Source: Naegleria gruberi (taxonomy: Eukaryota). From it: a stretch of DNA of 64,000 nucleotides. The stretch lies in NCBI GenBank assembly GCA_000004985.1, contig GG738887.1; one strand, 5' to 3'. Below the pieces are notes generated by a model, which saw only the letters and a program-made list of their open reading frames with translations, was not told the DNA's origin and made no database searches. The stretch's first letter is position 1; every line of letters begins with the position of its first letter. A program made the position numbers and the translations under genes. Shown here piece by piece: positions 323 through 44,300 of this stretch.

Positions 323-3300
323 ATGAAAGTGGTACTACTTGCTATTTTGTTGTGTATTGTTATGTCTGCCAAGTTCATTGACACACAAAGTCTTCTTCTC
401 TACAATATCACAACAATAGCAGGAGGTGGTTCTGTTGTGGGCGATGGTTTACTTGCTACTAATGCTCAATTAGCAATCCCTGCAGGCGTTGCAATTAGCT
501 CTATTGGTGAAATAATAATTGCTGACTCCAATAATAATAGAATTCGTAAAATAAGTACAAATGGCTACATTTCAACGATAGCAGGAACAGGAAGTGCATC
601 ATTTGGTGGTGATGGTGGACTGGCCATTAATGCACAATTAAATAGTCCTTCTGCTGTTTCTATTAGCTCAAATGGTGATATGTATATTTCGGATACGGGC
701 AATCAAAGAATTAGAAAAATCAGTACCAATGGATATATCTCAACAATTGCAGGAAGTGGAACTGGAGGATACAGTGGAGATGGCGGATTGGCCACAAGTG
801 CTCAATTATATTATCCCAAGGGAGTAGCTATCAGTCCAAGCAATGAAATTTATATAGCTGATACCTATAACCATAGAATTCGTAAAGTAAACACAAATGG
901 ATATATCTCAACTGTAGCAGGAAGTGGAACTGGAGGCTACGGTGGAGATGGTGGATTGGCCACAAGTGCTCAGGTAAACTATCCATTTAGCGTGTCAATT
1001 AGTTCTACTGGTGAAATTTATATTGCTGATTATTACAATCAAAGAATTCGAAAAGTTACAACATATGGTTTTATCTCGACTGTGGCAGGAAGTGGAACTG
1101 CTGGATACAGTGGAGATGGTGGATTGGCCACAAGTGCTCAATTATATTATCCGCTTGGTGTGTCAATTAGTTCTGCTGGTGAAATTTATATTGCTGATTA
1201 TTACAATCATAGAATTCGAAAAGTTACGACATCTGGGTACATTTCTACAATTGCAGGAACTACCTATGGTTTCAGTGGAGATGGTGGATTGGCCACAAGT
1301 GCTCAGTTGTACTATCCCAATGGCGTTTCAACAGGCTCCAATGGTGAAATATTTATAGCTGACACATACAATTATAGAATTCGTAAAATTAATACCTCTG
1401 GTTACATTTCTACAATTGCAGGAACATCAAGCTTTGGAAACAACATACCTGCTACCGGCGCCAACATAGCACCAACTGGCTCCCCTACTCTTAACAATGG
1501 TAAAATTGTATTTGCAGACACCTCTGGCCAAGTGAGGCAAGTTGACCTTACTACTAATATTATTTCTACCCTAGGTGGAACTGTTGGATCTACAACAATA
1601 GTACAGGCATTCTATAATCCAACATGCGCAAAGTATTACAAGACAGATTTATATATTCTCTACTCTAACTACTATTTAGACAAGGTCACCTCAGTTGCCA
1701 GTAAGGTTGCAGGTACTGGTACTTTAAATGGATACGGTGGAGATGGTAACCTTGCAACAAGTGCAAGATTGAATTATCCTTATGGTACTGCATTTAGCTC
1801 AAATGGAGATATGTATATTGCAGATACAAACAATAATCGAATTCGTAAAGTTACAACATCTGGATATATCTCAACTGTAGCAGGAAGTGGAACTGGGGGA
1901 TACAGTGGAGATGGTGGATTGGCCACAAGTGCACAATTAAATTATCCAAGATCAGTTGCAATTAGCTCAAGTGGAGAGATTTATATTGCTGATTTCAATA
2001 ACCACAGAATTCGTAAAATTAACATCTCTGGATATATCTCAACAATAGCAGGTACTGGAAGTGTAGGATACAGTGGAGATGGTGGATTGGCCACAAATGC
2101 ACAATTATATTATCCCCAAACAGTTGCAGTCAGCTCAAGTGGTGAAATTTATATTGCTGATGCCTATAACCATAGAATTCGTAAAATTAACACCTCTGGA
2201 TATATCTCAACAATAGCAGGTACTGGAAGTGTAGGATACAGTGGAGATGGCGGATTGGCCACAAGTGCTCAATTATATTATCCATTTAGTGTGGCAATTA
2301 GTTCAGTGGGTGAAATTTATATCGCTGATACCTATAACCATAGAATTCGTAAAATTAATACCTCTGGTTACATTTCCACAATTTCAGGAACTGGAAGTGG
2401 AGGATATAGTGGAGATGGCGGATTGGCCACAAGTGCACAATTAAATTATCCATTTAGTGTGGCAGTTAGTTCAGTTGGTGAAATTTATATAGTTGACACC
2501 AATAACTATAGAATTCGTAAAATTAATACCTCTGGTTACATTTCCACAATTGCAGGAACTGGAACTGGAGGATATAATGGAGATAGTATTTTGGCCACAA
2601 GTGCACAATTAAATTATCCTTATGGACTCACAATAAGTTCAACTAGTGAAATTATTGTTGCTGATTATTACAATCACAGAATTCGTAAAATTAACACCTC
2701 TGGTTACATTTCAACAATTGCTGGCGGTTTTGGTGATGGAGATATGGCCACCACAAGTTTCATTTCAGCTTATTCATTCGAGTTCACTTTAAATGGAGAA
2801 ATTATTATAGCTGATTCAAATAATCACAGAATTCGTAAAATTACAACATTAGGATATATTTCCACAATTTCAGGAACTGGAACTGCTGGATATAATGGAG
2901 ATGAAATTTTGGCAACAAACTCTCAATTGAATAATCCTAACGGAATTGCACTAAGTTCCAATAGTGAAATTTATATAGCTGATACCAATAACCATAGAAT
3001 TCGTAAAGTCAATGCATCTGGTTACATTTCAACAATTGCAGGAACTGGAACTGGAGGATATAATGGAGATGGTGTTTTGGCCACAAGTGCACAATTAAAT
3101 TATCCTAATGGAATTGCAATTCAAGAAAATGGTGAAATACTAATTGCTGACAATAATAATCATAGAATTCGTAAAATACGCACAAATGGCTATATTTCCA
3201 CAATTGCTGGAAGTGGAATTGGTGGATTTACTGATAATACTGTAGCAACAAGTGCTCAATTAGAAAATCCCTTGGGGGTTGCAATCGGTTCAAACAAAGA

Positions 3301-6300
3301 GATTTTTCTTACTGATTCGACCAATAAGAGAATTAGAAAACTTATCCCTTGGTGCTCAGAAAATGGCATTCTAATTAATGGAACTTGTGAATATCAATGT
3401 TTTGGAGAAACTAATAAGAACTCAACTGTTTGCTCTGGAAGAGGAAACTGTATTGGGAATGATCAGTGTAATTGCACCACTCCTCAATACTTCGGTTCAA
3501 AATGCAACCAATTTTATTGTTATGGACTATTGAACGCAATGTCAAATGTTTGTTCGTCCCAAGGTAGCTGTAATTCTCCTAATAATTGTACATGCTTTAA
3601 AGGGCATTATGGAGAAACTTGTCAATATTTTTACTGTAACTCTATTCCATTCAATTCCAGTGCTGCTTGTTTAGGTAGAGGTTCTTGTATCTCATATAAT
3701 AATTGCACATGTCAACAAGATTATGCAGGCAATGATTGTCAATATTTTTATTGTGGTAATCGTCTGAATAATGATGGTACAGTGTGCTCTGCACATGGAA
3801 ACTGTATATCTCCTCATAATTGCTCTTGCGACAGTGGTTTTTATGGAAGCAATTGTGAACAATTCGATTGTTATGGCATTAATAATTTGAATGCATCAGT
3901 TTGTTCCAGAAATGGTTATTGCTCCTCTCCAAATAATTGCAAATGTGATCTTGGTTATTATGGAAATAGCTGTGAAATGTATAACTGTTATGATATTCCA
4001 AAAACTGACCCAAGTGTTTGTTCAGGTCAAGGCCTTTGTTCTTCATATAATAACTGCACTTGTCAACAAAATTATTCAGGAGTTAATTGCGAAAATTTCC
4101 ATTGTTATGGAATATCAAAAATAGAGTCTACAGTGTGCTCATCACATGGAACATGCTTAGCGTTGAATAATTGTTCTTGCATTGATGAATATTTTGGAAA
4201 TAATTGTGACCAATTTAAGTGTTATGGTGTTAACTTTATGAACAATTCAGTTTGTTCAGGAAGAGGCCAATGTATTTCGCCAAACTATTGTAAATGTGAT
4301 CTTGGTTATTATGGAAATAATTGTGAAATGTATGATTGTTATGGGTTGTCAAAAAATAATACCAATGTATGCTCAGGTCACGGTACGTGTATTTCATTGA
4401 ATAACTGTACTTGCAGAGATGGATATTATGATTCCAAATGTGGTTCATTTAACTGTGCTGGAGAAAAATTTATAGGCCAAAACCTTTGCCAAAATAATGG
4501 CTCTTGCACTGGTCCTGGTAACTGTGAATGCCCTATTCAGTATGGAGGTGCTAGATGTGAATATTTCAAATGTTATTCATTTACATCCAATGATCCTCAA
4601 GTATGTGGAGGTCATGGAACTTGTTATAATTATAACCATTGTACTTGCTCTCAAAATTGGTTTGGAAAAGATTGTTCAGTCACCACTTGTTTTAGTACAC
4701 CTTCTAACTCTAGCTCTGTATGTGGTGGAAGAGGTAATTGTACTGATTATAACCAATGCAGTTGCAACATTGGATATAGAGGTAATGAATGTGAACATAC
4801 TGTTTGTTATGATAAGATTGAAAGTGATAGTTCTGTATGCTCTGGAAAAGGTTTATGTCTATCACCAAATAATTGCACCTGTGAAACAGGTTTTGTTGGA
4901 AGTGAGTGTCAATACCATGAAGTATATTTAAATACGTCATCCGCCATTATTTTTTCTTTCCATAACAGTCTAATGAAGTTATTACCAAATGAGAGTGAAC
5001 AATTTTCGTGTTCTGACATTTTTGAAGAATCAGAAATCGACAAATTTGGAGAAAGTTCCTCTTTCATCTGCCAATGGAGAAGAAAATCATTACAAATTCA
5101 TCTTGGTTTTGATTATGCTATTGGTCATAACTCTATCATTCAAACTAAGTTTAACTTTTCATTGAGAGTTTATACTTTATCCAATGAAGCTTCATCTCCA
5201 ACTTGTTCTTTTGGATATTCATTAACTGAAACTTCTCCCTTATTAGATATAGTGATACGTTTGAATTGTGATGACAATTTTCATGGCTTCAAGAAATTGA
5301 GAACTGATTGGTCGTGTGATCAATGCACAAACAGCGTTTCATCATTATTGAACAACTATTCAAATAGATCATCCATTTATATCCCTATTTCATATATGAA
5401 TAGTTTGACTCCTATTCAAGGTTATAAGATTATTAACTTACAAACTTCTTTTTCATCAGAGATTTATTCTACAAAATCCATCAACAAGGAAGTTAAGGTT
5501 CAATCCTATGCAAAATCATTACCTCCAAGTTATTACTGGCTAAGTGATAATTATGCTGGAAAGACATATTCATGTATTGCTCATAATTGCATTTTAGAAA
5601 CTTCTTTAAATAGTTTAAACTCTTCTATTTCTTATTCATTCTCTGGATTTTTCAGTTTATTGAATAATGACCTAAACTCTAAACAAATGGTGAGGATGAT
5701 TAATGATTATTCTGGTGGAGTTTTAGATAGCGAATTTAATTCAAATATGCAAGTATTTGGTGTTCAGCTAAAAACATATGTTTACTTACCATTAAGCATT
5801 GACTCTTTTAAATATTCAACATTTACGAACTTGGATTTTGTTATGGCAGGTGTCAATAGAACATATTCGATCAACTCAGATAGTCTGGTGACAGTTACAT
5901 TGGTAACTGATGATCCATACATCTCAAAATATACTCTAAGCGATTATTTGGAATACACTTGGAAATGCTACATGGTTTCTTCTTCAAATAGATCTCTTCT
6001 TTTGACAGATAATTTATGTTCTTCAATTGAAAACACTAGATCTTATCTTATGTTAGACATTACGAAAATGTCTTTAAAAGAAGGTTCATATGTAATATCT
6101 GCTTCGATTTCCTCTACAAAATACTTTGTCACAACCGTTTACAACTATGCAGGTTTTATTGAATTGTTGGATATTTCCAACGAATCCCCTAAAATAACCA
6201 CAGACTACTTGCCTGCAATCACACCTTCTCATAATAATATTTATTTAAGAAGTGTGGTAAACTCTTCCTCAGAGGTTTCGTTTGCTTGGAACCTCAAACA

Positions 6301-9024
6301 TGGTTATTTGAATGTTGATGAAAACATAGAAGATTTTCTCCAAAGAAACACAATTTACACAAACATCATTGACAATAACGTTGAAATCATTTTGAACGTT
6401 GATAACAAGTACATCATTCCAGGAGAATCGTATGAATTCGAATTATCAACTAAAAATTCAAAAGGTTATGCTAATGTCTCCATTTCAACAAGAGTTGACT
6501 TCTCCCCACGATTGTCATGCGATGTCGAGAATTTGAAGAATGATGCTAATATTACCAGTTTTGAATCATTGATATCCATTACTTGTGTAAAATTACCATA
6601 CGAAAGTATTTCGAGTTTTGTGATGGAATTTTATTCACAAAATGAAAGATTGGGAGTAATATCTAATACTCCAAAGAAATCCTTAGTTACTAGAGTTCCT
6701 TATTATGCACAAGATGGAATAATTACTTTGGTTGTAAAACTTCAAAACTTGTATGGATCTATTGGAGTATTTAGAAAGAATATCAAGATTGGATTACCTA
6801 ATTATTTGTCAAATGACAATACGATTATTTCCCGAGTTACTTACTCCCTAAACCAATTCCAAAATATTAAGAATTCTCAACCAGTCAAGATGGAAGTTTC
6901 AAATGAAATCAATACTTTACTTTCTCTATTAATTCAAAATGAAACTCTCTCGAAATTCTCTGAGAATGTTGTAAAGCAATTGAATTCAGCTCAATTAACT
7001 TCATTCAATACCATGCTAAGAGAAATGATCATATTAACGAAGAGTTTACAAGATATTACATACAGGGTTGATGAAAGAGTCATTCAATTGACTTTGCCCG
7101 TTGTCAGCAAGATTTGTAATATTTTAAAAATAACTCTGGACACTTCATCATTATCTTCATTCGCTCTTGATGTAGAAAAATGGTTGGATTGGATTTATTC
7201 TGGAATGGACAAAGCGCTTAATTATTATCAAACCAATATTTACAAAGACTTACTTGATAACTATCATTTGCAAGAAATAGAGTCATTACAAAACATTCTT
7301 TCAACTATTTATCAAAGTAATTTCGAGCAGCAATACAAGTTCTATAAGTATAATTTACAATACATCAAGCTGACTGGAAGCAATACTGATAATTCAAGCC
7401 TGGTGGAAAATATTGAATATTCTAATTTATTGAATGCCAAGGCTATCTCTCTCTCAATTTCCAACTTTAAGGTGGACATGAAATTACCTAATGATTTTAC
7501 GAACCAAATTTCTTTGCAATCTAAATCTAAACTATTCTATTCTATCAGATCATTTAGTAACACTGGAGCTACAAATCTTTTACAAGAAAAACCAGTGGTT
7601 GATCTATCTCTGTATGACGCCTCTTACAATATTATTAACGTCAAAAATATCAATCCACCAATTGTCTTCAAATTCCAAGGATTAATTACCAATAATAAGA
7701 CTGGCATCAATACTACTTGTATATATTATGACACAACTCTTTCAAAATGGTCTACTATTGGGTTGGAAACATACACCACAATAACTAAAAGAACAGACGA
7801 TTTTATTTACTTCGATATGGAATGTCGTTCCAGTCACTTATCAGTCTTTTCAGTTCAAGAAGTTGATTATAACTCTCCTATCACACCTATTACCGCTATA
7901 TCATCTAATAGATCTAGTAGAGATGAATCATCAACCATTTTAACAATTATATTATCAACAGTTTTACCGATTAGCCTTTTAATACTTGTTTTTATCATTA
8001 TTTTGGTTGTTTTCATGATCCTTTTATTTAGAAATAAGCAAAAGAAAGCAAATGAACTAGCAAATACAACCAATATTGAACTATCAATATCAGACTTCCC
8101 ATCTGAAGGAAGTATGTTTATTCAACCACTTACAAGCATTTCTTCCAATGGAACTGCTTCTGAATCCTTCAATCCTCTCTCTAGATATTCTAATCTGGTA
8201 AGAATTGGACAAGGATCTTTTGGATCTGTGTTTAAAGCATTTGATAACAAGTCCGATTCAGTCAAGGCAATTAAGGTTATTCGATATAATTCAATGGAAG
8301 AATTGAACAATTTTATGAAAGAAGGAACTCAATTAATGAATGTTAAACATCCTTACATTTTGAGAGTTAATGAATTCTTTGTGAGTAAGGATCAATTACT
8401 TTGTATAGATATGGACTTTTATGAACTAGGAGATTTGGTCCGATTGACCAATGTTGATTTTGACTGCTCTGAAAAATTAATTAAGCAAATAATTTTCCAA
8501 ATGTGTCAAGCTCTTGATTACATTCATAGCAATATGAAAATAATTCACAGAGACATCAAACCATCAAATATATTTGTAAAAAGTTTGGAAAATGATAACA
8601 TTCATATCATTGTTGCAGATTTTGGGTTAGCTAAAGCAAATACTACATCTACAAACAATTCTTATGCAGGTACTCCTATTTTTATGGTAAGTTTCTTTAA
8701 TTCTTCATTAATTATTAACAAGTTTAGTCTCCTGAACTTGGCTTAGGTGGAAAATATTATTATAACACGGATATTTATAGTTTAGGTGTTACAATTTATC
8801 AAATAATGACAAAAGACACATTTACATCAATAAGTCAACTTTACTTGGGCAAAGATCAAAATGAAGTATCCAAAATATTAAACAAAAAGTTATAAGAGGA
8901 TCAATACTCCCAAAGACTTACTGATTTAGTGTTATCAATGCTAACAAGAGATAATTCATCTAGACCTCAAGCTCAAGATATTTTGCAAGATTCTTATTTT
9001 GATGATTTAAGAATGAAACGATAA
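323..9024 (+). CDS. Giant receptor-like protein kinase. Order: signal peptide, about 20 NHL repeats (~400-3330), about 18 tenascin-type EGF repeats (~3340-4920), ~1,000-aa domain of unknown fold, GPS-like CxxxHLSVFSV motif (~7728-7860), one TM helix (~7936-8025), cytoplasmic Ser/Thr-type kinase. Exon 1 is 323..8686, intron 8687..8727, exon 2 starts at 8728. The frame contains an internal TAA at 8893-8895 and then continues through kinase subdomain XI to TAA at 9022-9024.
   Basis: The ORF is 2,807 aa with N-terminal MKVVLLAILLCIVMSA. It has repeated '...YISTIAG(S/T)G..GY(S/N)GDGGLAT.AQL..P..V....GEIYIAD..NHRIRK' NHL units. It has repeated 'C.G.G.C.....C.C...Y.G..C' EGF units. The hydrophobic segment is ILSTVLPISLLILVFIIILVVFMILLF followed by RNKQKK. 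Kinase motifs are GQGSFGSVFKAFD, AIKVI, HRDIKPSNIF and DFGLAKA. Splicing GTAAGT...TTTAG joins GTPIFM to SPELGLGGKYYYNTDIYSLGV (APE and subdomain IX). After the TAA, the same frame encodes LVLSMLTRDNSSRPQAQDILQDSYF (subdomain XI). Confidence 0.8.
400..4920 (+). repeat. Two intragenic tandem arrays at DNA level. The NHL array has units of about 141 nt (~400-3330). The EGF array has units of about 93 nt (~3340-4920). Several adjacent NHL units are near-identical at nucleotide level.
   Basis: Recurring nucleotide strings such as 'ggaggatacagtggagatggtggattggccacaagtgc' and 'catagaattcgtaaaattaacacctctgg' appear at about 141-nt spacing. The EGF block has recurring 'tgttatgg...tgttc...gg...tg...aattg.acttg' patterns. 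Confidence 0.7.
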
Positions 9025-19979: not shown

Positions 19980-21524
19980 TTATTTTCTTAGTGATGTCAA
20001 ATGTTTCATTTCACTAATGTATTTGGCTCCTTCACCACCAATTCGATTGTAAGACATATCAAGTGATGTCAATTGTTTCATTTCACTTATTGATTTGGCT
20101 CCTTCATCATTAATTTGATTGAAAGAAATATTAAGTGATGTCAATTGTTTCATTTCACTTATGTGACTAATTTCATTGTAAGAAATATCAAGTGATGTTA
20201 AGTGTTTCATTTCACTGATGTATTTGGCTCCTTCATCACTAATTAGATTGTTAAAAATATCAAGTGATGTTAATTGTTTCATTTCACTTATATATTTGGC
20301 TCTTTCATCACTAATTTGATTGTTAGAAATATTAAGTGATGTTAATTGTTTCATTTCACTCATGAACTTGGCTTCTTTACCACTAATTTGATTGTTAGAA
20401 ACATTTAGTGATATCAATTGTTTCATTTCGCTTAAAAATTTAGCTCCTTCATCACTAATTTGATTGTTAGAAATATCAAGTGATGTTAATTGTTTCATTT
20501 CACCAATGTATTTGGCTCCTTTACCACTAATTTGATTGTCAGAAATATTAAGTGATGTTAATTGTTTCATTTCACTTATATATTTGGCTCCTTTACCGCT
20601 AATTTGATTGTTGGAGACATTAAGTGATGTTAATTGTTTCATTTCACTTATTGGTTTGGCTCCTTCACTAATGTCATTGTAAGAAATATTAAGTGATGTT
20701 AATTGTTTCATTTCACTGATGTATTTGGCTCCTTCATCACTAATTTCATTGTAAGAAATATTAAGTGATGTTAATTGTTTCATTTCGCTTATGAACTTGG
20801 CTCCTTCTGCACCAATTTGATTGTAAGAAATATCAAGTGATATCAATTGTTTCATTTCACTTATATATTTGGCTCCTTCATCACTAATCCGATTGTTAAA
20901 AATATTAAGTGATGTTAATTGTTTCATTTCACTTATATATTTGGCTCCTTTACCACCAATTCGATTGTTAGAAATATTAAGTGATGTCAATTGTTTCATT
21001 TCACTTATATATTTGGCTCCTTTACCGCTAATTTGATTGTTGGAGACATTAAGTGATGTTAATTGTTTCATTTCACTTATTGGTTTGGCTCCTTCACTAA
21101 TGTCATTGNNNNNNNNNNNNNNNNNNNNNNNNNNNNNNNNNNNNNNNNNNNNNNNNNNNNNNNNNNNNNNNNNNNNNNNNNNNNNNNNNNNNNNNNNNNN
21201 NNNNNNNNNNNNNNNNNNNNNNNNNNNNNNNNNNNNNNNNNNNNNNNNNNNNNNNNNNNNNNNNNNNNNNNNNNNNNNNNNNNNNNNNNNNNNNNNNNNN
21301 NNNNNNNNNNNNNNNNNNNNNNNNNNNNNNNNNNNNNNNNNNNNNNNNNNNNNNNNNNNNNNAAACCACGAATCATCAATCATGGAAATTATCTCAAAAC
21401 AAATATCATCTGAAAATATTTCTTGTTGCAGTTTCACAACTTTTTTTGATTTTTCTTCCATATTGTTTTTCATATTGTTGTTGTTAGTGAATATTTCCTC
21501 CGAATTAATTGACTCGATTTTCAA
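19980..21524 (-). CDS. Leucine-rich-repeat protein (RNI-like 24-residue repeats, 'ISEMKQLTSLNISNNQISDEGAKY'). It is interrupted by an assembly gap, so the repeat number is unknown.
   Basis: ORF of 514 aa containing a run of X from the N gap. More than 20 tandem 24-aa LRR units are present. The N-terminal non-repeat segment is MKIESINSEEIFTNNNNMKNNMEEKSKK. Confidence 0.7.
   Translation of the reverse strand: MKIESINSEEIFTNNNNMKNNMEEKSKKVVKLQQEIFSDDICFEIISMIDDSWFXXXXXXXXXXXXXXXXXXXXXXXXXXXXXXXXXXXXXXXXXXXXXXXXXXXXXXXXXXXXXXXXXXXXXXXXXXXXXXXXXXXXXNDISEGAKPISEMKQLTSLNVSNNQISGKGAKYISEMKQLTSLNISNNRIGGKGAKYISEMKQLTSLNIFNNRISDEGAKYISEMKQLISLDISYNQIGAEGAKFISEMKQLTSLNISYNEISDEGAKYISEMKQLTSLNISYNDISEGAKPISEMKQLTSLNVSNNQISGKGAKYISEMKQLTSLNISDNQISGKGAKYIGEMKQLTSLDISNNQISDEGAKFLSEMKQLISLNVSNNQISGKEAKFMSEMKQLTSLNISNNQISDERAKYISEMKQLTSLDIFNNLISDEGAKYISEMKHLTSLDISYNEISHISEMKQLTSLNISFNQINDEGAKSISEMKQLTSLDMSYNRIGGEGAKYISEMKHLTSLRK
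19990..21400. repeat. 72-bp tandem repeat array (coding LRR units), about 20 copies, spanning the assembly gap.
   Basis: Unit 'ttaagtgatgttaattgtttcatttcacttatatatttggctcc(t)t(c/t)a(c)cactaatttgattgt(t/a)agaaata' recurs every 72 nt with few substitutions. Confidence 0.85.
21109..21362. other. Assembly gap (254 N) inside the 72-bp tandem repeat array.
   Basis: A contiguous run of 'n' characters. Confidence 1.
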
Positions 21525-35315: not shown

Positions 35316-35386
35316 GCGTCGATGGTTTAGTGGTAGAATACGGCGTTGCCATCGCCGTGACCCGGGTTCAATTCCCGGTCGACGCA
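35316..35386 (+). tRNA. tRNA-Gly (anticodon GCC).
   Basis: GCGTCGATGGTTTAGTGGTAGAATACGGCGTTGCCATCGCCGTGACCCGGGTTCAATTCCCGGTCGACGCA. It has a 7-bp acceptor stem, D-loop AGTGGTAGA, anticodon loop TTGCCAT and T-arm GGTTCAATTCC. Confidence 0.85.
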
Positions 35387-35823
35387 TCCAAGAGATATCA
35401 ATTTTTTTAGCTTTTCTACAAAGAGTCAAGCTTTCACTTTTTTACCATATCAACTATACATGCAATACTACAATATACTTAAATTTCTCATCGTCATATT
35501 TCATATTGATAGAGATAATAACCACCGATCCGACCTCGCTGTAGAATCTCTGATGATTATAGAAAATAGTAGGCATATCATATTGCCTCGGTGGTTGCAT
35601 AATACTTGGCAACCAACTGATATGTTTAAACAACAGCAGTAAACTGCTTATTGTACATATATTTCGAACATGATGTCTCATAAGCATTACTCTTTGATTA
35701 ATAGATATTTGTAAATAACTGACGTTTTATGCAGCTACGTTTGATATTTTTCAACTAGGTTCTTGTGAGCTTGTGGATGAACATAACAATCCTAACAAGT
35801 TCATAAGAATCTCATTAAAAAAA

Positions 35824-36669
35824 ATGAAACAACTTCTACTCTGTCAGGACATCTTGTCATTAATTATAATGTTTGATGAGGATCCTTTCGAAATACTGAT
35901 GTCATTCCGATCTGTTTGCAAGACTTGGCACGAATGGACAAATTCACATCATTTATTATTGGATTGTATTATTTCAGTATTACATAAAGGATGGTCAATT
36001 AGAAATGATTCCACAAACGAAACTTTTCAAGTCAATTTATTTAAATTACCATCATATCAAGATGAATATCATCCTGATATTTTCACACATGCTCTCAAGT
36101 ATTATAAATTGGTAAAGAAACACATTGAACAATATACAGAACAATTGGAGCATCCAAATTCAAGTTGTGAATATGTTTATGCACCAACAAGAGTTGAAAA
36201 CAAATTGGCTTTGGAAATGTCAAGTATTCTTACACCATTTTTATTTCTGAAAAAGGCAAGCACTGAATTTGGAAGTTATGATTTTCGATCAAATTTAGCA
36301 ACTGTAGTGATTGCAAATGTTAAGGGAGAGGACAAGTTTGTGAGTTTAAAGATGTTAAATGACAGAGGTCAACCAGGACCATACTCGAATTATACTGTTT
36401 GTGAATTACTTGAATTCGAAACAGATTCTTCCAAGATTCAAAGTAATGACGAGTTGTTAAATGTTTTAATTAATCATTTGGGGACTACAAAATCCTGGAA
36501 TAGGAAAAGAGTTTTGGAGGTGATGGAATTTATTGGATTGGAAGAGGAATTCCTTTCGAATAATGATTGTGTTAATGATTTCATCTATGTGGTAATGTAT
36601 GAACTCATCTTTAAATCTATAGAAATATGGTATACAGAGCAATATCTTTTCAATTGTGGGGATATTTAA
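35824..36669 (+). CDS. Hypothetical protein (no recognisable domain).
   Basis: Long ORF; first ATG at 35824 (MKQLLLCQDILSLII...). No family recognised. Confidence 0.4.
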   Translation: MKQLLLCQDILSLIIMFDEDPFEILMSFRSVCKTWHEWTNSHHLLLDCIISVLHKGWSIRNDSTNETFQVNLFKLPSYQDEYHPDIFTHALKYYKLVKKHIEQYTEQLEHPNSSCEYVYAPTRVENKLALEMSSILTPFLFLKKASTEFGSYDFRSNLATVVIANVKGEDKFVSLKMLNDRGQPGPYSNYTVCELLEFETDSSKIQSNDELLNVLINHLGTTKSWNRKRVLEVMEFIGLEEEFLSNNDCVNDFIYVVMYELIFKSIEIWYTEQYLFNCGDI

Positions 36670-36717
36670 ATATCAAGTCGGTGGTTAATTGAAAATTGTT
36701 AAATTAAGGAAATGAAT

Positions 36718-36835
36718 GGCTACGGCCATATCACGATTCATGCACCTCATCCCGTCCGATTTGAGAAGTTAAGCATCGTCGAGCCACATCAGTACTGAGG
36801 TTGGAGACAACTTGGGAACCTGTGGTGCTGTAGTC
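36718..36835 (+). rRNA. 5S ribosomal RNA gene (dispersed copy 1).
   Basis: GGCTACGGCCATATCACGATTCATGCACCTCATCCCGTCCGATTTGAGAAGTTAAGCATCGTCGAGCCACATCAGTACTGAGGTTGGAGACAACTTGGGAACCTGTGGTGCTGTAGTC. Helix I pairs 5' GGCTACGGC with 3' GCTGTAGTC, and loop C/E motifs are conserved. It is followed by a T-run. Confidence 0.85.
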
Positions 36836-36869
36836 CTCTTTTTCCTTCCTTATGTTTATTAGAGTTTCA

Positions 36870-37366
36870 TCTATTTTAGCCATCATTAAAACAATGAAAG
36901 TGGAAGAGGAGCTGCAATATACCATCATGAAGAGCTACATGCTCTTCCTCCATCTCAATAATTTGATATTAAGGCGAGAGTATTCAATAACTTTCTTGAA
37001 TCCATATTTATTTTTCACATTAAAGATACCACAATTTTATAATTGCACTTTTCACACATTCAAAGCCAATATCACAAACCTCACAAATGAAACTTGATAA
37101 AACCATTGACTGTACTTCTACAGGATCTTTTCTGTAGGAATACATAAACTCGACTTTTTTGAGTCAATCTGACCTTTGAGGTTAACCAAGATGAAGACTC
37201 TGTAGTCACATATCTTGAGCATGATATCGAACTGGAAACATGCTTCGTTGTAGGTTTCCTCGTTCATAGATGATTGCTGCATTCCTTACCAGCCATGGTT
37301 TGTGAATGGGGGATTTGTGAACATGCAGATTGGTACCTTAAACCTTTTATCAATTAATAGAAAATT
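36870..37366. repeat. Interspersed repeat copy A, immediately downstream of 5S copy 1. It is related to 43905..44300 but with the central ~155 bp in opposite orientation.
   Basis: Shared blocks are 'tttcttgaatcc.tatttat...ttttcacacattaaa..taccacaatttt.taattgcacttttcacacattcaaag' and 'gatatcgaac...atgcagattggtacctta...ttttcaattaatagaaaat'. Segment 37073..37227 is the reverse complement of 44079..44229. Confidence 0.75.
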
Positions 37367-37709
37367 ATTACAACCAACCAACCAAATGCCCCCAATAGCA
37401 CTAGTCATAACCATATATTGCAATGAATATCATTCATAAAAATTAAACATTTCTCAATCATCAATTTCACTCTTGGTCGAGCAGTGACTCGTTGCACGCA
37501 AATCATTTAATTTTTGAGATGGCATTTTGTTCTTAGAAACTTGAAACAACAGAATTTTGGAGAAAAAATGAGAGTGTCCAATCTTTGATTATTTTCTTGG
37601 TGGTTTTAAGAGATGAAACTTTGAAAATTGGTAATTAGCTAGAGTACTTATCATTCATCCTATGATGAAAAAAGTAAAACCTATATTCCAGATAGAGTCA
37701 AAAATTAAT

Positions 37710-37780
37710 CTCGAGTGCCGGGAATTGAACCCGGGTCGCCAGAGTGACAGTCTGGAATGCTACCACTATACCACACCCGA
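37710..37780 (-). tRNA. tRNA-Asp (anticodon GUC).
   Basis: Minus-strand TCGGGTGTGGTATAGTGGTAGCATTCCAGACTGTCACTCTGGCGACCCGGGTTCAATTCCCGGCACTCGAG. The anticodon stem-loop is CCAGA-CTGTCAC-TCTGG, with T-arm GGTTCAATTCC. Confidence 0.8.
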
Positions 37781-38319
37781 TTGCATTCAAGTAGAAATGA
37801 TTCCTTAATTCGCCTTAGTATATAGTCATTTCTGCCATTAATTTATTATTAGAAAATTGACTTCCATTTCGAAGTGAAGAGGCTTCTTAAAAAAAGAATT
37901 ATACCATAATGTTGTGAACCCACAAAACAATCTGAAGATAAGAGACATTCCAACCCATAACCGAATTTGAGGCATGTAGTGTAATTCTAACATCACGATC
38001 AGCTCATTACTCTATGAAGTTTTAATCTTTGCATCAAATCTGCTAAATTAACTTTTCAAATTTTAATGAAGAGGTCAGCAAATGTTTTTAAAGTTCCCAA
38101 AATGTTTTCAATGTTCATTTTCAAAATTTCTTATCTATTTTTAAATATAATGACGAAATTTTCATCATCATTACAAAAAGTATGATGTCAACAACTCCGA
38201 AATTCAATGATGAAGACACACGGTTTTCATTCATATAAAACCCATTGAACGATATTCTTGAAAAAAACAAGAATTTGCAAACAAGCAATTCAACTAACAA
38301 TTCTAATAACTCAAACAAA

Positions 38320-38868
38320 ATGGACTTTTTCAAAAAGATTGGTCAATTCTTCTCTGGATGGCTCAGAGGTTTATTCGAAAATAAGGAAGCCAAGATTCTA
38401 TTCCTTGGTTTGGATGCAGCTGGTAAAACTTCAGCTCTATATAAGATTCAATTAGATGAAAATGTTAGCACTATTCCCACCATTGGTTTCAATGCTGAAG
38501 TGTTACAATATAAGAAGGTAACTTTCAGAGTGTTTGATATTGGTGGCCAGGATAAGATTAGAAAGTTATGGAGACACTATTATCAATCGACAAATGCTAT
38601 CATTTTCATTGTCGATTCTAATGATACTGAGAGATTTAAAGAAGCTGCCGAAACCTTACGGGAAGTTATGCAGGATGATTTATTGAAAGATGCCAAGTTA
38701 TTGGTGTGGGCTAATAAGCAAGATTTGCCAAGAGCTGCCAATGTTAAAGATATGGTCAATACTTTGAAATTACACGAGATTAAGCAAGAATGGTACATCC
38801 AACCATGTAGTGCCCTGTCTGGCAATGGATTATTCGAAGGTTTGGATTGGTTATCCAGTAAATTGTAA
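38320..38868 (+). CDS. ARF/ARL-family small GTPase.
   Basis: [13 protein letters not shown]...[18 protein letters not shown]...[20 protein letters not shown]...ANKQDLP...[17 protein letters not shown]. This matches the ARF G1 to G5 motifs. Confidence 0.85.
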
Positions 38869-38921
38869 ATAAACACTTTGATATCTCATATTTCAAACTT
38901 GTCAAATAGGATTTCATCATA

Positions 38922-39875
38922 TTAGCCTCCAACCAATCTAAACACCATGACTAATTTAGAATTACTGTTAATTTCTAATTCTTGCAAAGTTTTTTCATCA
39001 TCTTCCATTGACATCACTTTCGAATTGTGAATTATTCTAAATTCATTACCAATGTTCCACTCCTCAGCCACCCTCCAACGAATCATATTGAAAGTATTGT
39101 TAGGATCTGCAAAAAATCTCAATTCCTTTCCTGAGATTGATTTAATACGCAATTCTATAGAGTTGTCCAATGTGGAAAAGCTTGAAATTTCCTCATCCTT
39201 AAAAAGTACATTTCCAACAAACTGAAAGGCCTTTGGGGTTTGTTTCAGTGCAGCTAAATTAATTTCTCTATTATTCTTCAGTGAATATCCCACATATTCC
39301 AATAATATTCCACACTGGCTTACAATTTTCAACATGTATTCTCTATTATTTAACAAGTATTGATTTAAAACATATTTGATGGCTCTTGGATTACAATCAA
39401 GAGCAGCTCTACAAATTTCCTCATCCTGTCTAAAGTCCTCATCCATATCTTTTAATAGGACCCAATTATTCTTTACCTGAACTAATTCCTTGACAAAATT
39501 TCGATCTCTTCTCAATACCTTTCCAACATATTCACCACTCGCAAAAGCATCATTCGAAATTGCCTTCAAAACTAATTCTCTATCATTCCTCCAATTTTCA
39601 TGAAGAATTTTCAATGCCTTTCCTTTATGTTGCTTGATCACAGCAAGAGCCACCTCTCTATCCAAACTAAAATCGAATGGTTTCAGACTCGGAATGAATG
39701 GAACGTTGCTATGTTTTATCTGGTTTAAAACCATCAATTTTGCATAGTGGTGCTTTAGTACTTGTTGAGATGTCTTCATCATTTCATTCCGAAGTATTTG
39801 TTGTAAATTAGTCATGAATTTATAATTTTCCTGATGGAAATCAGTGAGTGTAATTTTTACTGTTTCGTTCTGCAT
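38922..39875 (-). CDS. Protein with DUF4116-like ~35-aa repeats and a C-terminal ubiquitin-like domain that ends exactly in ...RLVGG-stop.
   Basis: Repeats: ELVLKAISNDAFASGEYVGKVL, EICRAALDCNPRAIKYV, EYMLKIVSQCGILLEYVGYSL, EINLAALKQTPKAFQFVGNVL. C-terminus: IELRIKSISGKELRFFADPNNTFNMIRWRVAEEWNIGNEFRIIHNSKVMSMEDDEKTLQELEINSNSKLVMVFRLVGG. This aligns with ubiquitin (TLTGKTITLEV...[16 protein letters not shown]). Confidence 0.65.
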   Translation of the reverse strand: MQNETVKITLTDFHQENYKFMTNLQQILRNEMMKTSQQVLKHHYAKLMVLNQIKHSNVPFIPSLKPFDFSLDREVALAVIKQHKGKALKILHENWRNDRELVLKAISNDAFASGEYVGKVLRRDRNFVKELVQVKNNWVLLKDMDEDFRQDEEICRAALDCNPRAIKYVLNQYLLNNREYMLKIVSQCGILLEYVGYSLKNNREINLAALKQTPKAFQFVGNVLFKDEEISSFSTLDNSIELRIKSISGKELRFFADPNNTFNMIRWRVAEEWNIGNEFRIIHNSKVMSMEDDEKTLQELEINSNSKLVMVFRLVGG

Positions 39876-40056
39876 ATGATGATCGTGTTTTATGACTTGA
39901 TTTTTTTTGTTTTGTAATTGATTTAAACTTCAAATTCGAAATACAAAACGATCGTAACAGGTAAATTGAAAATTCACAAAATTGGTGTACAATGTGGGAT
40001 TTCGTTTTAAAGGAAGTTGGTGGTTGATTGAAACTTGTTAAATTAAGGAAATGAAT

Positions 40057-40174
40057 GGCTACGGCCATATCACGATTCATGCACCTCATCCCGTCCGATT
40101 TGAGAAGTTAAGCATCGTCGAGCCACATCAGTACTGAGGTTGGAGACAACTTGGGAACCTGTGGTGCTGTAGTC
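40057..40174 (+). rRNA. 5S ribosomal RNA gene (dispersed copy 2).
   Basis: Identical to copy 1 over the 118-nt gene. It is preceded by the same ~40-bp upstream block (ggtgg.t.attgaaa.ttgttaaattaaggaaatgaatg) and followed by TTTTT. Confidence 0.85.
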
Positions 40175-40332
40175 TTTTTCCTTTTACCACATTGAACGTT
40201 AACCTTTCTATTTAGAGACATGTTCATTACAACAATATTCAAATTGATTAATGATGCAAACAACTTACAATTCAATAAATATTTATTAAATGTTGAATAT
40301 TCCCAATGCTAAAGCAATGTGAATAGACACAT

Positions 40333-41820
40333 CTACACAACATTTTCCATGTCAATATTTACTTCATCCATTTGCATTAAATCGAAACTTGCCTTCTCCA
40401 TTTCTTCTTGTGAATCTTCATAGACCTGAACTTCATCCGATTGAAAACCATAAATCTCAACAATTTGCTCATTGAACCATTGTTCATTGAAGAGGACTTT
40501 TGTTGGATAGCCATTCTCCTCAATTACCTTAATCATTTGATGGAAGAGAAACTCCAATTCGTTGTAGTATTGAGCAAAGTCAAGTTCACTAATGTATTCA
40601 TCTTCAAGAATTGACATGCACTTGTCAAACTTTTCACTAATTGACATGTATAATGAATCATTGTCAAAGATGTCATGATAATTTTCTATAGCTTGATGAA
40701 TGGTATGGAGCATGAGTTGTTTGTTACGTTTCAATCCTTCCAAAATGTCCAATGATTCATTAATGCGTTTGAATTTTGAAAAATTATTAGAAATGATGCA
40801 TTTGATGAATTTCTTCTTAATCTTTCTGATTTGTTCGGTAATGAGAGAGTTGTCCAATACTTTGAAATGGCTTTCGGTGCTTTCAATTCTTTTGAAGAGC
40901 ACATCTTCATAGCAATCAACTTTGATAGATCTGTTACTGGAGAGAAGGGTTCCAAAATTATCCTCTTTTTGAATGGTTTCGAATAGGATTTTTGTATTTG
41001 ATGGAAAGAAAAAGGATAAAGCAAGCTTGAGTGCACCATATTTGGATGGTTGTGTGGAGATGGAATGATTAACAATGATTCTCTTCAATGAACACACAAT
41101 TTCTGGTTCCTTCAAATCTTCCTTGGACAATGATTGCAAGAATGTTTCTGGAATAATCAATTCTTCACAATTAGGATAACACTTCCCCAATAAATCATTC
41201 AAGAAGGATCTCAATTCATTACATGAACCGATAGTATTACGAAGGATCAATTTCCTGACCTTTTCACTTGAATGATTCAATATGTTTTCTTGACTTGGAT
41301 GTGAAACACACAGAGTTGGAATTGTGATGGATCTGTGAGGAAACTTGTGACTTTCATAATATTCAAGATTGGGAGCAATGGTGGAAATATCATAATTCTT
41401 TGGAGGTCTAATAAATAATAATCGAGTCAACTTGCTACCTAAATGTGAAATAAGTGACAAATCACTATTGTTGTAAATTATATTTGAGAATGATAATTCC
41501 TCAATATTGGAAGAAATCAAATCAAGATTATTGACAAGTGCAAATATTGGGTTATCAACTCCCTTAGGTTTCCCTTCATTTGTTAAGTTTCTAATGAATG
41601 ACCATTCAAGGTCAAATGTCAACTTTTTCAAATAAGGACTAATTTTAAAAATTCTTTTTGAGAATCGAGATTCTGGGTAGATGAGCTGAAAGTTTTTGAA
41701 CTTTAAATGTTGGATCTTACTGGTACTTGCGTTCATCAAGTCAACCAATTGTCTCTTTGTAATTGAAATTCCATTTAAGGTATTGTAGTTTTCCAGAAAC
41801 CATGACATAAATTTTTTCAC
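40333..41820 (-). CDS. Hypothetical protein (495 aa), possibly LRR/F-box-like.
   Basis: Long uninterrupted ORF on the minus strand. No clear family recognised. Confidence 0.45.
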   Translation of the reverse strand: MKKFMSWFLENYNTLNGISITKRQLVDLMNASTSKIQHLKFKNFQLIYPESRFSKRIFKISPYLKKLTFDLEWSFIRNLTNEGKPKGVDNPIFALVNNLDLISSNIEELSFSNIIYNNSDLSLISHLGSKLTRLLFIRPPKNYDISTIAPNLEYYESHKFPHRSITIPTLCVSHPSQENILNHSSEKVRKLILRNTIGSCNELRSFLNDLLGKCYPNCEELIIPETFLQSLSKEDLKEPEIVCSLKRIIVNHSISTQPSKYGALKLALSFFFPSNTKILFETIQKEDNFGTLLSSNRSIKVDCYEDVLFKRIESTESHFKVLDNSLITEQIRKIKKKFIKCIISNNFSKFKRINESLDILEGLKRNKQLMLHTIHQAIENYHDIFDNDSLYMSISEKFDKCMSILEDEYISELDFAQYYNELEFLFHQMIKVIEENGYPTKVLFNEQWFNEQIVEIYGFQSDEVQVYEDSQEEMEKASFDLMQMDEVNIDMENVV

Positions 41821-41859
41821 CTCAACACCAATCTTTTTTCCATCTCATCCATGTTGATC

Positions 41860-42915
41860 GATTAAAATCCATCTATTCAATCTGTTTTTTGATCAATCTA
41901 TCAAACAATCGATCATGATTAATCAACAATTTCAATCATATTGAATAAAGACTTGATGTTATTTGAAAAGGCTCAACCTTCAGCTAATTATCAAAAGATG
42001 TTGTTTGATTTCTTATGATGTTTCAAAAAAAAGAACTTAAAACACAAAAAGTTGGTTTTCTAAGTGCTTAAAATCATGTTAGAAGCCAATCTCCTCCGAT
42101 GTGGCATTTGAATATAAATTTCTTATAATCCTTTCTGAGCTCAGTGACAGAAGGTTGCTCCCAACCTTTTTCCACGAATATGTCAAGTGCTCACTCTTGA
42201 TTTTAATTTGGGATGTGGATATTGCAATATTACATAAGAGTGTTGGTTCTTGATTAAATGATTGCTTACACAAGTTTGGACGTTGTTGCTCCTGAACATG
42301 TGGTTTTGTTCAAAGAGCATTTTATCAAGTTTGCTTTCATTCTCACCCTTTGTCATTAATTAAGGCACTCAATACTGGAAACCTTTTTTCAAGTGTTGTA
42401 TTTTATCATGTCAAGTACTTGAGAAACTCATTTGATGTAGTAGAAGATCCACATTGTAAAGAAATTAAAACATTCAAACTTAATGAATCGTTCCGATGCC
42501 ATCCCAGCTTGATATGGAATTCAGTAATACCAATAAGGTGATTTTCAAGGCACTCTGTACTGACATCTAACCAAGGGTTGATTTAAAATGAAAAAAGGAG
42601 CAATTTGGAGAAGCCATTTCGAAGCTTAGTGAAATAAGTAAGGGAGAATGAAATCTGTGACTCTAAAAAAATAATTGAAAAACCAAAAAACAACTCTCAA
42701 AAAGTCAAAAAGGCAAGAAAAAAATCAAACCTGAACTGGAAGAACAAAAGAAATCATCAAAATCAAAGTCTCAAGCTCAGTTCAATGAGGATTTCGAGAT
42801 ATCTGATGAAAACATTGATAGATCGATCGATTGATCGATCAATTAATTGATAAAATTCTATGTTTCATCCATTCAATCGATCATTTTCCATCTCGATCAA
42901 TCATCGATGGGTAAA
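41860..42915. promoter_or_regulatory. Intergenic region containing two clusters of ATCGAT/GATCGATC palindromic motifs (41860-41930 and 42820-42915).
   Basis: 'tgatcgattaaaatcc...caatcgatcatgattaatca' and 'gatagatcgatcgattgatcgatcaattaattga...caatcgatcattttccatctcgatcaatcatcgatggg...ccatcgaaaa'. Confidence 0.3.
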
Positions 42916-42938
42916 AAAAATCCATCGAAAAATTTATG

Positions 42939-43463
42939 TCATGGTTTCTCGAAAACTACAATAACTGTACTAAACTTTTCAATTGTGGACATGAATTTAA
43001 GTGAATATTCTGAAAATCTCACAACAAGTTCAGTGTCATGAATAAATGGTTCATTTTCCAACCAATCATGTAAAAATTCTAATTGACTATTATTGTTACA
43101 ACACCAAACTCTTCTGTGCATGAGAATTTGCAAGCAAGCTTCTCTATTTACCAAATCAGGAAAATTAATCAAATACTTCATCAATTCAGCAAGGAATTCC
43201 TCATCACTATAGTTTGACATGATTTCCAGCACAATATCTGCACATCCTAATGTACTTTCCAATAGCTGTTTCATTTTCAATTTGTCCATTGCTTGTTTCA
43301 TTTGTTGTTGAATTCCCTTCTTGTTGCCACGTGCGATGGTTGCAGCTACATTCAGATCGGTTGCAAATCTTGCCCATCCGTCTGGATCCATCAGCATGGC
43401 AGAGGGTGGAATGGCAATTCTTGGTTTCCTTGATGACTTTTTTGATATTTTGGCAGGCAGCAT
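42939..43463 (-). CDS. Hypothetical protein (174 aa).
   Basis: Minus-strand ORF starting MLPAKISKKSSRKPRIAIPPSAMLMDPDGWARF... No family recognised. Confidence 0.4.
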   Translation of the reverse strand: MLPAKISKKSSRKPRIAIPPSAMLMDPDGWARFATDLNVAATIARGNKKGIQQQMKQAMDKLKMKQLLESTLGCADIVLEIMSNYSDEEFLAELMKYLINFPDLVNREACLQILMHRRVWCCNNNSQLEFLHDWLENEPFIHDTELVVRFSEYSLKFMSTIEKFSTVIVVFEKP

Positions 43464-43904
43464 GTTTCTAATAATGTTTCTAATAATTGTTGTTGGTTTC
43501 TTTTTCTTTTAACTGAAGGCAAATAGTTGTGTTTGCGAATTTAAAGTTGTTTTAATCACGTTGTGAATTCCGATCTGGGCAAAAATGGACTAAATCATGT
43601 TTTGTGTGTGGAAACGAAAGATTTTGTTTGCTTTGACAAGGTTCAATGTTTTCTTGTGACACCTGGAAGTGGCACTCTGAAGTTTACGTAAATTGATTGA
43701 TTTTGTTTGAAACAGTGGTTATGATGATGCAACTTCATGTTCTTTTTCCATAAACACCAATTAGAAAACTTTTGAGAAAATAGGAATTGAAAAAAGGGAA
43801 GTTTGCCTCCAACTTACTTTGTCAAGACAAAAATTTACAACAGTTCTGGATTATTTGCTCAAATACAAGTGGATATAAATACCGAGTTGAAGGAAATTCT
43901 TAAA

Positions 43905-44300
43905 AACCATGGTATTACGATCTTGAAGAAGAGCCATCATGGAACTATTGAAAATGCTCTTTCCACCTCAATGATTTAATGAAAATAACATTCAATTATT
44001 TTCTTGAATCCTATTTATATATTTTTCACACATTAAATGTACCACAATTTTCTAATTGCACTTTTCACACATTCAAAGATATTATGCTCAAGATATGTGA
44101 CTACAGAGTCTTCATCTTGGTTAACCTCAAAGGTCAGATTGACTCAAAAAAGTCGAGTTTATGTATTCCTACAGAAAAGATCCTGTAGAAGTACAGTCAA
44201 TGGTTTTATCAAGTTTCATTTGTGAGGTTAGAGAAATTGGCTTTGATATCGAACATGCAGATTGGTACCTTATACTTTTTTCAATTAATAGAAAATAAAA
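43905..44300. repeat. Interspersed repeat copy B (inverted-core variant of 36870..37366).
   Basis: See copy A. The central block 44079..44229 is the reverse complement of 37073..37227. Confidence 0.75.

What the first reader, a model, noticed from the sequence alone, without database searches (positions are those of the whole stretch)
8887..8901. In-frame TAA inside the kinase C-lobe of the giant receptor gene
After the 41-nt intron (8687-8727), exon 2 encodes SPELGLGGKYYYNTDIYSLGVTIYQIMT...SKILNKKL. It then hits TAA at 8893-8895. The same frame continues immediately with EDQYSQRLTDLVLSMLTRDNSSRPQAQDILQDSYF. That is a bona fide kinase subdomain XI (…R(P)…IL…F), ending at TAA 9022-9024. So the kinase domain is interrupted by a single nonsense codon. 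Possible explanations are a base-call error in a draft assembly, a very recent pseudogenising mutation in an otherwise intact 8.7-kb gene, a strain polymorphism, or programmed stop-codon readthrough.
Basis: seen in the sequence. Interest (0 to 1): 0.55.

Follow-up and report, generated by a model that had tools for sequence, protein, structure and literature searches.

The report
Premature stop in Naegleria receptor kinase
One member of a family of giant receptor-kinase genes in the amoeba Naegleria gruberi has a single stop codon that cuts off the last 42 residues of its kinase domain, most likely an ordinary recent point mutation or a sequencing error.

Summary
The window is Naegleria gruberi NEG-M. 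The gene (323-9024, +) is NAEGRDRAFT_70916, whose public model (XP_002673894.1, 2807 aa) reads unspliced into the 41-nt intron and so hides the problem. Once 8687-8727 is spliced out, the kinase domain matches Pfam Pkinase end to end (1-263/263), straight across an in-frame TAA at 8893-8895. Seven relatives have a sense residue at that column (E, K, T or N). GAA or AAA to TAA is a single base change.

The 42 codons after the TAA are as conserved as in intact paralogs, and the other 2,885 codons are open. The change is therefore very recent, confined to one allele, or an assembly error. The tools cannot separate these.

Rescue mechanisms tested negative. The genome uses the standard code: TAA ends 13 of 21 long ORFs, four of them as TAA-G. 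No credible in-frame intron spans the stop. There is no leaky-stop context and no downstream RNA structure.

Translated as written, the receptor (NHL/EGF ectodomain, transmembrane helix, kinase) loses helices αH-αI and the subdomain-XI arginine, so it is probably kinase-dead. This is an ordinary finding of low interest. The mis-annotated gene models are a useful by-product.

The parts
323..8686 (+). Exon 1 of NAEGRDRAFT_70916. It has 2,788 codons and no stop. It encodes NHL repeats, EGF/teneurin-like EGF repeats, a GPS-like motif, a transmembrane helix, and kinase subdomains I-VIII up to ...AGTPIFM.
   Evidence: 100% identity and 100% coverage to XP_002673894.1 (P0121). Pfam NHL, TEN_NHL, EGF_2, EGF_TEN and Pkinase 1-164.
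7937..8029 (+). Predicted single transmembrane helix (ILTIILSTVLPISLLILVFIIILVVFMILLF) between the ectodomain and the kinase.
   Evidence: Read from the translation. It is a hydrophobic 31-residue stretch. No transmembrane predictor was run.
8186..8686 (+). Kinase N-lobe and catalytic core: GQGSFG, VKAIKV (8261-8278), HRDIKPSN (8546-8569), DFG (8615-8635).
8687..8727 (+). 41-nt phase-0 intron, GTAAGT...TTTAG.
   Evidence: Removing it restores the family-wide FM|SPE junction. The product of paralog model P0149 is continuous across the same junction. The public models for this gene and for P0141 read into the intron instead.
8728..8892 (+). Exon 2 before the stop. It has 55 codons covering the SPE (APE-equivalent) motif, subdomain IX (DIYSLGV) and the αG region, up to ...SKILNKKL.
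8893..8895 (+). In-frame TAA (context TTA TAA GAG) in the loop between αG and αH of the kinase C-lobe.
   Evidence: It aligns to E/T/K/N/K/K/E in seven relatives. It aligns inside ...NNPPTLEGNYS... of human MST3/STK24.
8896..9021 (+). 42 codons in the same frame. They encode αH-αI (subdomains X-XI): YSQRLTDLVLSML...SRPQAQDIL...YF.
   Evidence: Pkinase profile positions 230-263. BLASTP to paralog C-termini, E down to 2e-14. Conservation relative to the rest of the domain is 0.73, against 0.76±0.09 for intact pairs.
9022..9024 (+). Natural stop codon (TAA) of the full-length reading frame.
   Evidence: Paralog proteins end within a few residues of this point.

Best explanation
The TAA is a plain single-base nonsense change, most likely GAA(Glu) or AAA(Lys) to TAA. 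It sits in the last exon of one member of an N. gruberi paralog family of NHL/EGF-ectodomain, single-pass, STE20/NEK-like Ser/Thr receptor kinases. It is present in the sequenced NEG-M DNA, either fixed or on one haplotype, and it arose very recently. Translation ends there. The product would be a 2,843-aa receptor with an intact ectodomain, transmembrane helix and catalytic core. It lacks helices αH-αI and the subdomain-XI arginine that normally pairs with the Glu of the APE motif (here SPE), so the kinase is probably misfolded or inactive. That would make this a newly arisen null or kinase-dead allele, or a nascent pseudogene. What is shown: the stop, the homology on both sides, sense codons in relatives, and no sign of decay. 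What is inferred: that the base is real rather than an error, that translation terminates there, and that the truncation kills activity.
For: The TAA is confirmed and lies in frame inside a full-length Pkinase match. All seven relatives carry a sense residue at that column, E or K in five of them, and both are one substitution from TAA. A metagenomic relative has AAG GAG where the window has TAA GAG. The genome uses the standard code, and TAA is the commonest terminator: 13 of 21 long ORFs in the window end in TAA, four of them as TAA-G like this one. The site is in a contig interior, about 12 kb from the only N gap (21109-21362), and is not in a homopolymer run. N. gruberi is reported to be heterozygous (PMC9928731, citing Fritz-Laylin 2010), so a haplotype-specific null allele is plausible. 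Several paralogs exist, one only 52 kb away, so loss of one copy could be tolerated. The stop maps between αG and αH of MST3.
Against: There is only one disabling change in 2,886 codons, and the post-stop segment shows no excess divergence. That is equally what a base-call error would produce. No independent copy of the locus could be found to confirm the base. The assembly is a draft of 784 scaffolds.
Confidence: 0.6

Rival explanations
1. Base-call or consensus error in the draft assembly. The real codon is GAA, AAA or CAA, and the gene encodes an intact 2,886-aa receptor kinase.
For: There is a single defect in an otherwise perfect 8.7-kb gene. Downstream conservation cannot be told apart from that of intact paralogs. 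The assembly is a draft with gaps. E and K at this column in relatives are each one base from TAA.
Against: The site is in a contig interior, far from the gap, and not in a run of one base. From general knowledge, substitution errors in multi-fold Sanger consensus are much rarer than allelic SNPs in a heterozygous genome. I could not retrieve the coverage figures for this genome. None of this is direct evidence.
Confidence: 0.3
2. Programmed stop-codon readthrough. A fraction of ribosomes decode UAA as an amino acid, producing both a kinase-dead and a full kinase isoform.
For: The frame stays open, and the downstream 42 codons are conserved.
Against: The codon is UAA followed by G, which from general knowledge is among the least leaky contexts. 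It is also an ordinary terminator context in this window. The 3' sequence GAG GAU CAA does not fit the CAR-YYA or CUAG type motifs. The 118 nt from the stop fold no better than shuffles (z=+1.1). The stop is not conserved, since all seven relatives have sense codons. No suppressor tRNA was found in the window. No paper in the library links readthrough to Naegleria genes other than in passing.
Confidence: 0.04
3. The stop is removed from the mRNA by splicing (a second intron or an alternative acceptor), or it is a sense codon under a variant genetic code.
For: Short introns that carry in-frame stops do exist in this family. One is the 48-nt intron 62917-62964 with a TAG, in the paralog.
Against: The three real introns seen in these two genes have GTAAGT or GTATGT donors and measure 41, 48 and 73 nt. 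The only short in-frame GT..AG candidates around 8893 are 8866-8898 (33 nt, GTATCC) and 8889-8915 (27 nt, GTTATA). Every candidate, short or long, would delete residues conserved in all relatives (VSKILNKKL or EDQYSQR). The alternative acceptor at 8929 from the real donor shifts the frame (my reading). As for the code, exon 1 has no TAA, TAG or TGA in 2,788 codons, and TAA ends most long ORFs.
Confidence: 0.02
4. The truncated product is the intended, functional form: a receptor with a deliberately shortened pseudokinase tail.
For: The ectodomain, transmembrane helix and catalytic motifs are intact. From general knowledge, a stop in the last exon 129 nt before the normal one should not trigger exon-junction-dependent mRNA decay.
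Against: No relative ends at this point. The discarded 42 codons are still conserved, which is not expected if they had long been untranslated.
Confidence: 0.04

Closest known systems
Nascent (single-hit) pseudogene or nonsense allele in an expanded paralog family
   Same: There is one premature stop in an otherwise intact long ORF. Intact paralogs lie nearby. The downstream codons have not yet decayed.
   Different: Whether the base is real, fixed or heterozygous is unknown. There is no second disabling change that would prove relaxed selection.
STE20-group and NEK Ser/Thr kinases (human MST3/STK24, STK25, NEK1/2/7), the closest solved structures
   Same: The alignment to STK24 covers the full domain, residues 16-265 (E=9e-30). 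All catalytic motifs are present. The stop maps to the αG-αH loop.
   Different: Here the kinase is the cytoplasmic tail of a 2,800-aa single-pass receptor with an NHL/EGF ectodomain. Group membership was not tested by phylogeny.
N. gruberi paralogs NAEGRDRAFT_70943 (XP_002673912.1) and XP_002676294.1
   Same: NAEGRDRAFT_70943 has the same architecture, and its product is continuous across the same FM|SPE intron junction. Kinase identity is 70-78%.
   Different: Both have Glu where this gene has TAA, and both have complete C-lobes.
Programmed stop-codon readthrough genes (viral gag-pol type and eukaryotic UGA-CUAG type)
   Same: There is an open, conserved frame after an in-frame stop.
   Different: The stop type, context and structure do not fit, and the stop is not conserved among relatives.

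Membership tests
Eukaryotic protein kinase domain (Pfam PF00069) | Full-length match above the gathering score | tested here: met
   181.7 bits against a cut-off of 31.7, profile positions 1-263/263, with X at the stop.
Eukaryotic protein kinase domain (Pfam PF00069) | Catalytic motifs: Gly loop, VAIK Lys, HRD, DFG and APE | tested here: met
   GQGSFG, VKAIKV, HRDIKPSN, ADFGLAK and SPE are all present upstream of the stop.
Eukaryotic protein kinase domain (Pfam PF00069) | Subdomain XI arginine and helices αH-αI present in the translated product | tested here: not met
   They are encoded (SRPQ at 8959-8970) but lie downstream of TAA 8893-8895. They are absent from the product if translation terminates normally.
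Programmed stop-codon readthrough | Leaky stop and 3' context (UGA-C, UGA-CUAG, UAG-CARYYA) | tested here: not met
   The context is UAA GAG GAU CAA. TAA-G also ends 4 of the 13 TAA-terminated long ORFs in the window. The motif list comes from general knowledge.
Programmed stop-codon readthrough | Stimulatory RNA structure downstream of the stop | tested here: not met
   MFE is -13.7 kcal/mol against a shuffle mean of -17.4 (z=+1.1). 180 of 200 shuffles fold at least as well.
Programmed stop-codon readthrough | The stop codon itself is conserved among orthologs or paralogs, with a conserved extension | tested here: not met
   Seven relatives have E/T/K/N/K/K/E at the column. True orthologs from other N. 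gruberi strains were not available.
Programmed stop-codon readthrough | Readthrough product detected (peptide or reporter) | not testable with these tools
   No proteomic or ribosome-profiling data are accessible. A literature search by gene identifiers found nothing.
Variant nuclear genetic code (TAA as a sense codon) | TAA is frequent inside conserved ORFs and is not used as a terminator | tested here: not met
   There are no TAA, TAG or TGA codons in the 2,788 codons of exon 1. 13 of 21 long ORFs end in TAA.
Spliceosomal intron containing the stop | Canonical donor and acceptor, length like local introns, frame kept, and no conserved residues removed | tested here: not met
   The short candidates have weak donors (GTATCC, GTTATA) and are only 27-33 nt. 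Every candidate removes conserved residues. Real introns here have GTAAGT or GTATGT donors and are 41-73 nt.
Pseudogene | At least one disabling mutation in a region homologous to functional relatives | tested here: met
   TAA at 8893-8895 inside the kinase C-lobe.
Pseudogene | Relaxed constraint: further disablements, or excess divergence downstream | tested here: not met
   There is no other stop or frameshift in 2,886 codons. The post-stop/pre-stop identity ratio is 0.73, against 0.76±0.09 among intact pairs. With only 42 codons the test has low power.
Pseudogene | The mutation is real in the organism's DNA | not testable with these tools
   No reads and no second assembly of the locus are available.

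The most novel reading that the evidence does not exclude
N. gruberi deliberately reads through this UAA at low efficiency. One gene would then yield mostly a kinase-dead decoy receptor plus a small amount of signalling-competent receptor. That would be the first programmed readthrough reported in a heterolobosean, and it would occur in an unfavourable UAA-G context.
Probability: 0.03. Interest if true: 0.6.

Novelty: already known. Interest (0 to 1): 0.12.

Why it matters
The finding matters mainly for annotation. The public protein for this gene (XP_002673894.1 / D2VPM5) ends inside an unspliced intron, and so does at least one paralog model (P0141). Catalogues of the Naegleria kinome therefore list these receptors with half a kinase domain, and the premature stop has gone unnoticed.

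If the TAA is real, the gene is a clean example of a receptor kinase caught immediately after inactivation in a fast-evolving family. That would be of local interest for gene birth and death in Naegleria. It does not bear on any open general question.

Tried and rejected
- **Variant genetic code (ciliate or diplomonad style, TAA=Gln).** This was my first suspicion, given the 33% GC content and short introns. I rejected it because long standard-code ORFs fill the window and TAA is the main terminator.
- **A second intron or alternative acceptor that removes the stop.** I enumerated 54 GT..AG pairs of length 3n that span the TAA. None is credible. The 8687→8929 alternative acceptor shifts the frame.
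- **A readthrough-promoting RNA structure.** None was found.
- **A suppressor tRNA in the window.** Only tRNA-Gly(GCC) and tRNA-Asp(GUC) were found.
- **An independent copy of the locus.**
  - Exact-protein look-ups failed for the window ORF and for P0001.
  - A metagenome scan for the 27-mer with N at 8893 found nothing.
  - The protein searches returned no second near-identical sequence and no alternative haplotype scaffold.
- **DNA of the closest N. gruberi paralogs.** It could not be obtained. The kinase end of the gene at 61259 lies beyond the window, so no dN/dS test was possible. An amino-acid identity ratio was used instead.
- **Literature.** The Fritz-Laylin 2010 and 2011 papers are not held. 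There were no hits for the gene identifiers or for Naegleria NHL receptor kinases.

Full report
**1. What the window is**

Exon 1 of the gene (323-8686) is 100% identical over its full length to the Naegleria gruberi 'predicted protein' P0121. Its accessions are EFC41150.1, XP_002673894.1 and UniProt D2VPM5, and its locus tag is NAEGRDRAFT_70916. It sits on a 508,457-bp scaffold. GC content is 31-38% across the window. One 254-N gap lies at 21109-21362. N. gruberi NEG-M is a draft assembly of 40.9 Mb in 784 scaffolds (PMC6125883).

**2.

- Bases 8887-8901 read AAG TTA TAA GAG GAT.
- Exon 1 is open for 2,788 codons.
- Removing 8687-8727 (GTAAGT...TTTAG, 41 nt, phase 0) joins ...AGTPIFM to SPELGLGGKY.... 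The product of paralog model P0149, and two intron-less metagenomic relatives, show the same continuous sequence.
- After 55 exon-2 codons comes the TAA at 8893-8895. Then 42 codons follow in the same frame, up to the TAA at 9022-9024.
- With X at the stop, the domain matches Pfam Pkinase across profile positions 1-263/263 (E=2.4e-53). It also aligns to human MST3/STK24 residues 16-265 (E=9e-30).
- The post-stop peptide alone matches Pkinase positions 230-263. It matches the C-termini of all seven relatives (best E=2e-14, 62.5% identity).

The downstream frame is therefore genuine kinase sequence and not a chance ORF.

**3. The public annotation hides the stop**

P0121 is 2,807 aa long and ends ...TPIFMVSFFNSSLIINKFSLLNLA. 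The model runs unspliced into the intron and stops at the TAG at 8744-8746. Paralog P0141 has the same defect. P0149 (NAEGRDRAFT_70943), the gene that starts at 61259 in this window, is continuous across the junction and carries a complete C-lobe.

**4. What sits at this codon in relatives**

In a MAFFT alignment, the TAA column holds these residues:

| Relative | Residue |
|---|---|
| P0001 | E |
| P0002 | T |
| P0003 | K |
| P0004 | N |
| P0005 | K |
| P0006 | K |
| P0149 | E |

- The two closest paralogs read K-[MF]-E-E, where the window reads K-L-*-E.
- In the metagenomic relative L001 the DNA is TTG AAG GAG, against the window's TTA TAA GAG.
- GAA and AAA are each one substitution from TAA.
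- The loop varies in length across the family. It corresponds to the αG-αH loop (NNPPTLEG|NYS) of MST3.

**5. There is no sign of decay**

For each pair of sequences I divided the identity in the 36-39 aligned post-stop columns by the identity in the preceding kinase columns. Pairs that include the window gene give 0.73. Pairs of intact relatives give 0.76±0.09. Apart from this TAA, the 2,886-codon frame has no other stop or frameshift. The change is therefore very recent, carried on one haplotype, or not real. With only 42 codons, the test cannot separate these.

**6. Rescue mechanisms tested**

- **Genetic code.** Standard-code ORFs of up to 2,807 aa fill the window. Of 21 long ORFs, 13 end in TAA, 5 in TAG and 3 in TGA. 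Four of the TAA stops are followed by G, as this one is.
- **Splicing.**
  - The three introns supported by homology in the two receptor genes measure 41, 48 and 73 nt. All have GTAAGT or GTATGT donors.
  - The 48-nt intron (62917-62964) does carry an in-frame TAG, so the idea was worth testing.
  - Around 8893, the only short in-frame GT..AG candidates are 8866-8898 (33 nt, GTATCC) and 8889-8915 (27 nt, GTTATA).
  - These two, and all the longer candidates, delete residues conserved in every relative.
- **Readthrough.**
  - From general knowledge, UAA-G is an efficient terminator context, and the 3' codons GAG GAU CAA match no known leaky motif.
  - The 118 nt from the stop fold less stably than shuffled controls (z=+1.1).
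  - The stop is not conserved in any relative.
  - No suppressor tRNA lies in the window.
  - The literature search linked Naegleria and readthrough only incidentally.

**7. Consequence if translated as written**

The product would be 2,843 aa rather than 2,886 aa. It would contain:

- NHL and teneurin-type EGF repeats;
- a sub-threshold GPS-like motif;
- one transmembrane helix;
- kinase subdomains I-X, with every catalytic motif.

It would lack αH, αI and the conserved Arg of subdomain XI (SRP, 8959-8970). By the standard Hanks-Hunter description of kinase subdomains (general knowledge, not tested here), that Arg pairs with the Glu of the APE motif (SPE here) and helps hold the C-lobe together. 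The truncated protein is therefore most likely kinase-dead or unstable. The stop is in the last exon, 129 nt before the normal stop. Exon-junction-dependent mRNA decay would not be expected, though this too is an inference.

**8. Real mutation or error**

No independent sequence of the locus could be reached:

- exact-protein look-ups failed;
- a metagenome scan for the 27-mer with N at 8893 found nothing;
- the protein database holds no second near-identical sequence and no alternative haplotype.

Several points favour a real variant. The site is inside a contig, about 12 kb from the only gap, and not in a homopolymer run. N. gruberi is reported to be heterozygous. The gene belongs to a family with several members, one only 52 kb away.

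Favouring an error, this is the single defect in an otherwise flawless gene in a draft assembly.

| Explanation | My probability |
|---|---|
| Real nonsense variant | about 0.6 |
| Assembly error | about 0.3 |
| All recoding, splicing or functional-truncation ideas together | about 0.1 |

**9. Verdict**

The evidence removes readthrough, splicing and a variant code as serious options. What remains is an ordinary premature stop or an error. The kind of event is already known and interest is low. The useful by-products are the corrected gene structure and the note that the public models of this receptor family are truncated.

Noticed in passing
window 8687-8746: The public gene model for this gene (XP_002673894.1, 2,807 aa) does not splice the 41-nt intron and ends at a TAG inside it, so it lacks the whole kinase C-lobe. 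The paralog model P0141 (2,271 aa, on another scaffold) has the same defect.
   Followed up: yes
window 61259-64000 (runs off the end): A second giant NHL/EGF receptor-kinase gene (NAEGRDRAFT_70943, XP_002673912.1) lies about 52 kb downstream on the same strand. It has introns at 61767-61839 (73 nt) and 62917-62964 (48 nt, in frame, containing a TAG at 62928). Its annotated product has an intact kinase C-lobe.
   Followed up: partly
window 7715-7858: A GPS-like (GPCR proteolysis site) motif sits just outside the membrane: C..Y.D....W.....C....HLSVFSV. It covers Pfam GPS positions 2-44/45 but scores below threshold (16 bits against 22.5, E=0.018). The same motif (MECNTTHLSLFSV) is present in the paralogs. 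It could mark an autoproteolytic adhesion-receptor-type cleavage site fused to a kinase.
   Followed up: partly
window 323-~4500 (ectodomain): The best database matches to the NHL-repeat ectodomain, other than N. gruberi paralogs, are large proteins at 31-57% local identity. The few that carry names are bacterial, and the rest come from unnamed metagenomic contigs. This may reflect database composition or a bacterial origin of the repeat array. No phylogeny was done.
   Followed up: no
L001 2549-3301; L002 745-1605: Two metagenomic contigs (JGI 3300002220; ENA ERZ27315067) encode kinases 58-63% identical to this one. L001 also has an NHL-repeat ORF upstream. Neither has the FM|SPE intron, so the intron may be specific to the N. 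gruberi lineage.
   Followed up: partly
window 35316-45294: A cluster of small RNA genes: three dispersed 5S rRNA genes (36718-36836, 40057-40175, 45176-45294, all +), a U3 snoRNA (37106-37334, +), tRNA-Gly(GCC) at 35316-35386 (+) and tRNA-Asp(GUC) at 37710-37780 (-).
   Followed up: no
window 21034-21362: The only assembly gap (254 N, 21109-21362) is preceded by two near-identical peptide-coding repeats (...LEILSDVNCFISLIYLAP... and ...LETLSDVNCFISLIGLAP...). This suggests a tandem repeat that the assembly could not span.
   Followed up: no
(search behaviour, not sequence): The 367-aa kinase query did not return the 100%-identical 2,807-aa P0121 or the other long paralogs. Every listed hit was shorter than 650 aa. 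Negative results from that search therefore apply only to short proteins.
   Followed up: partly
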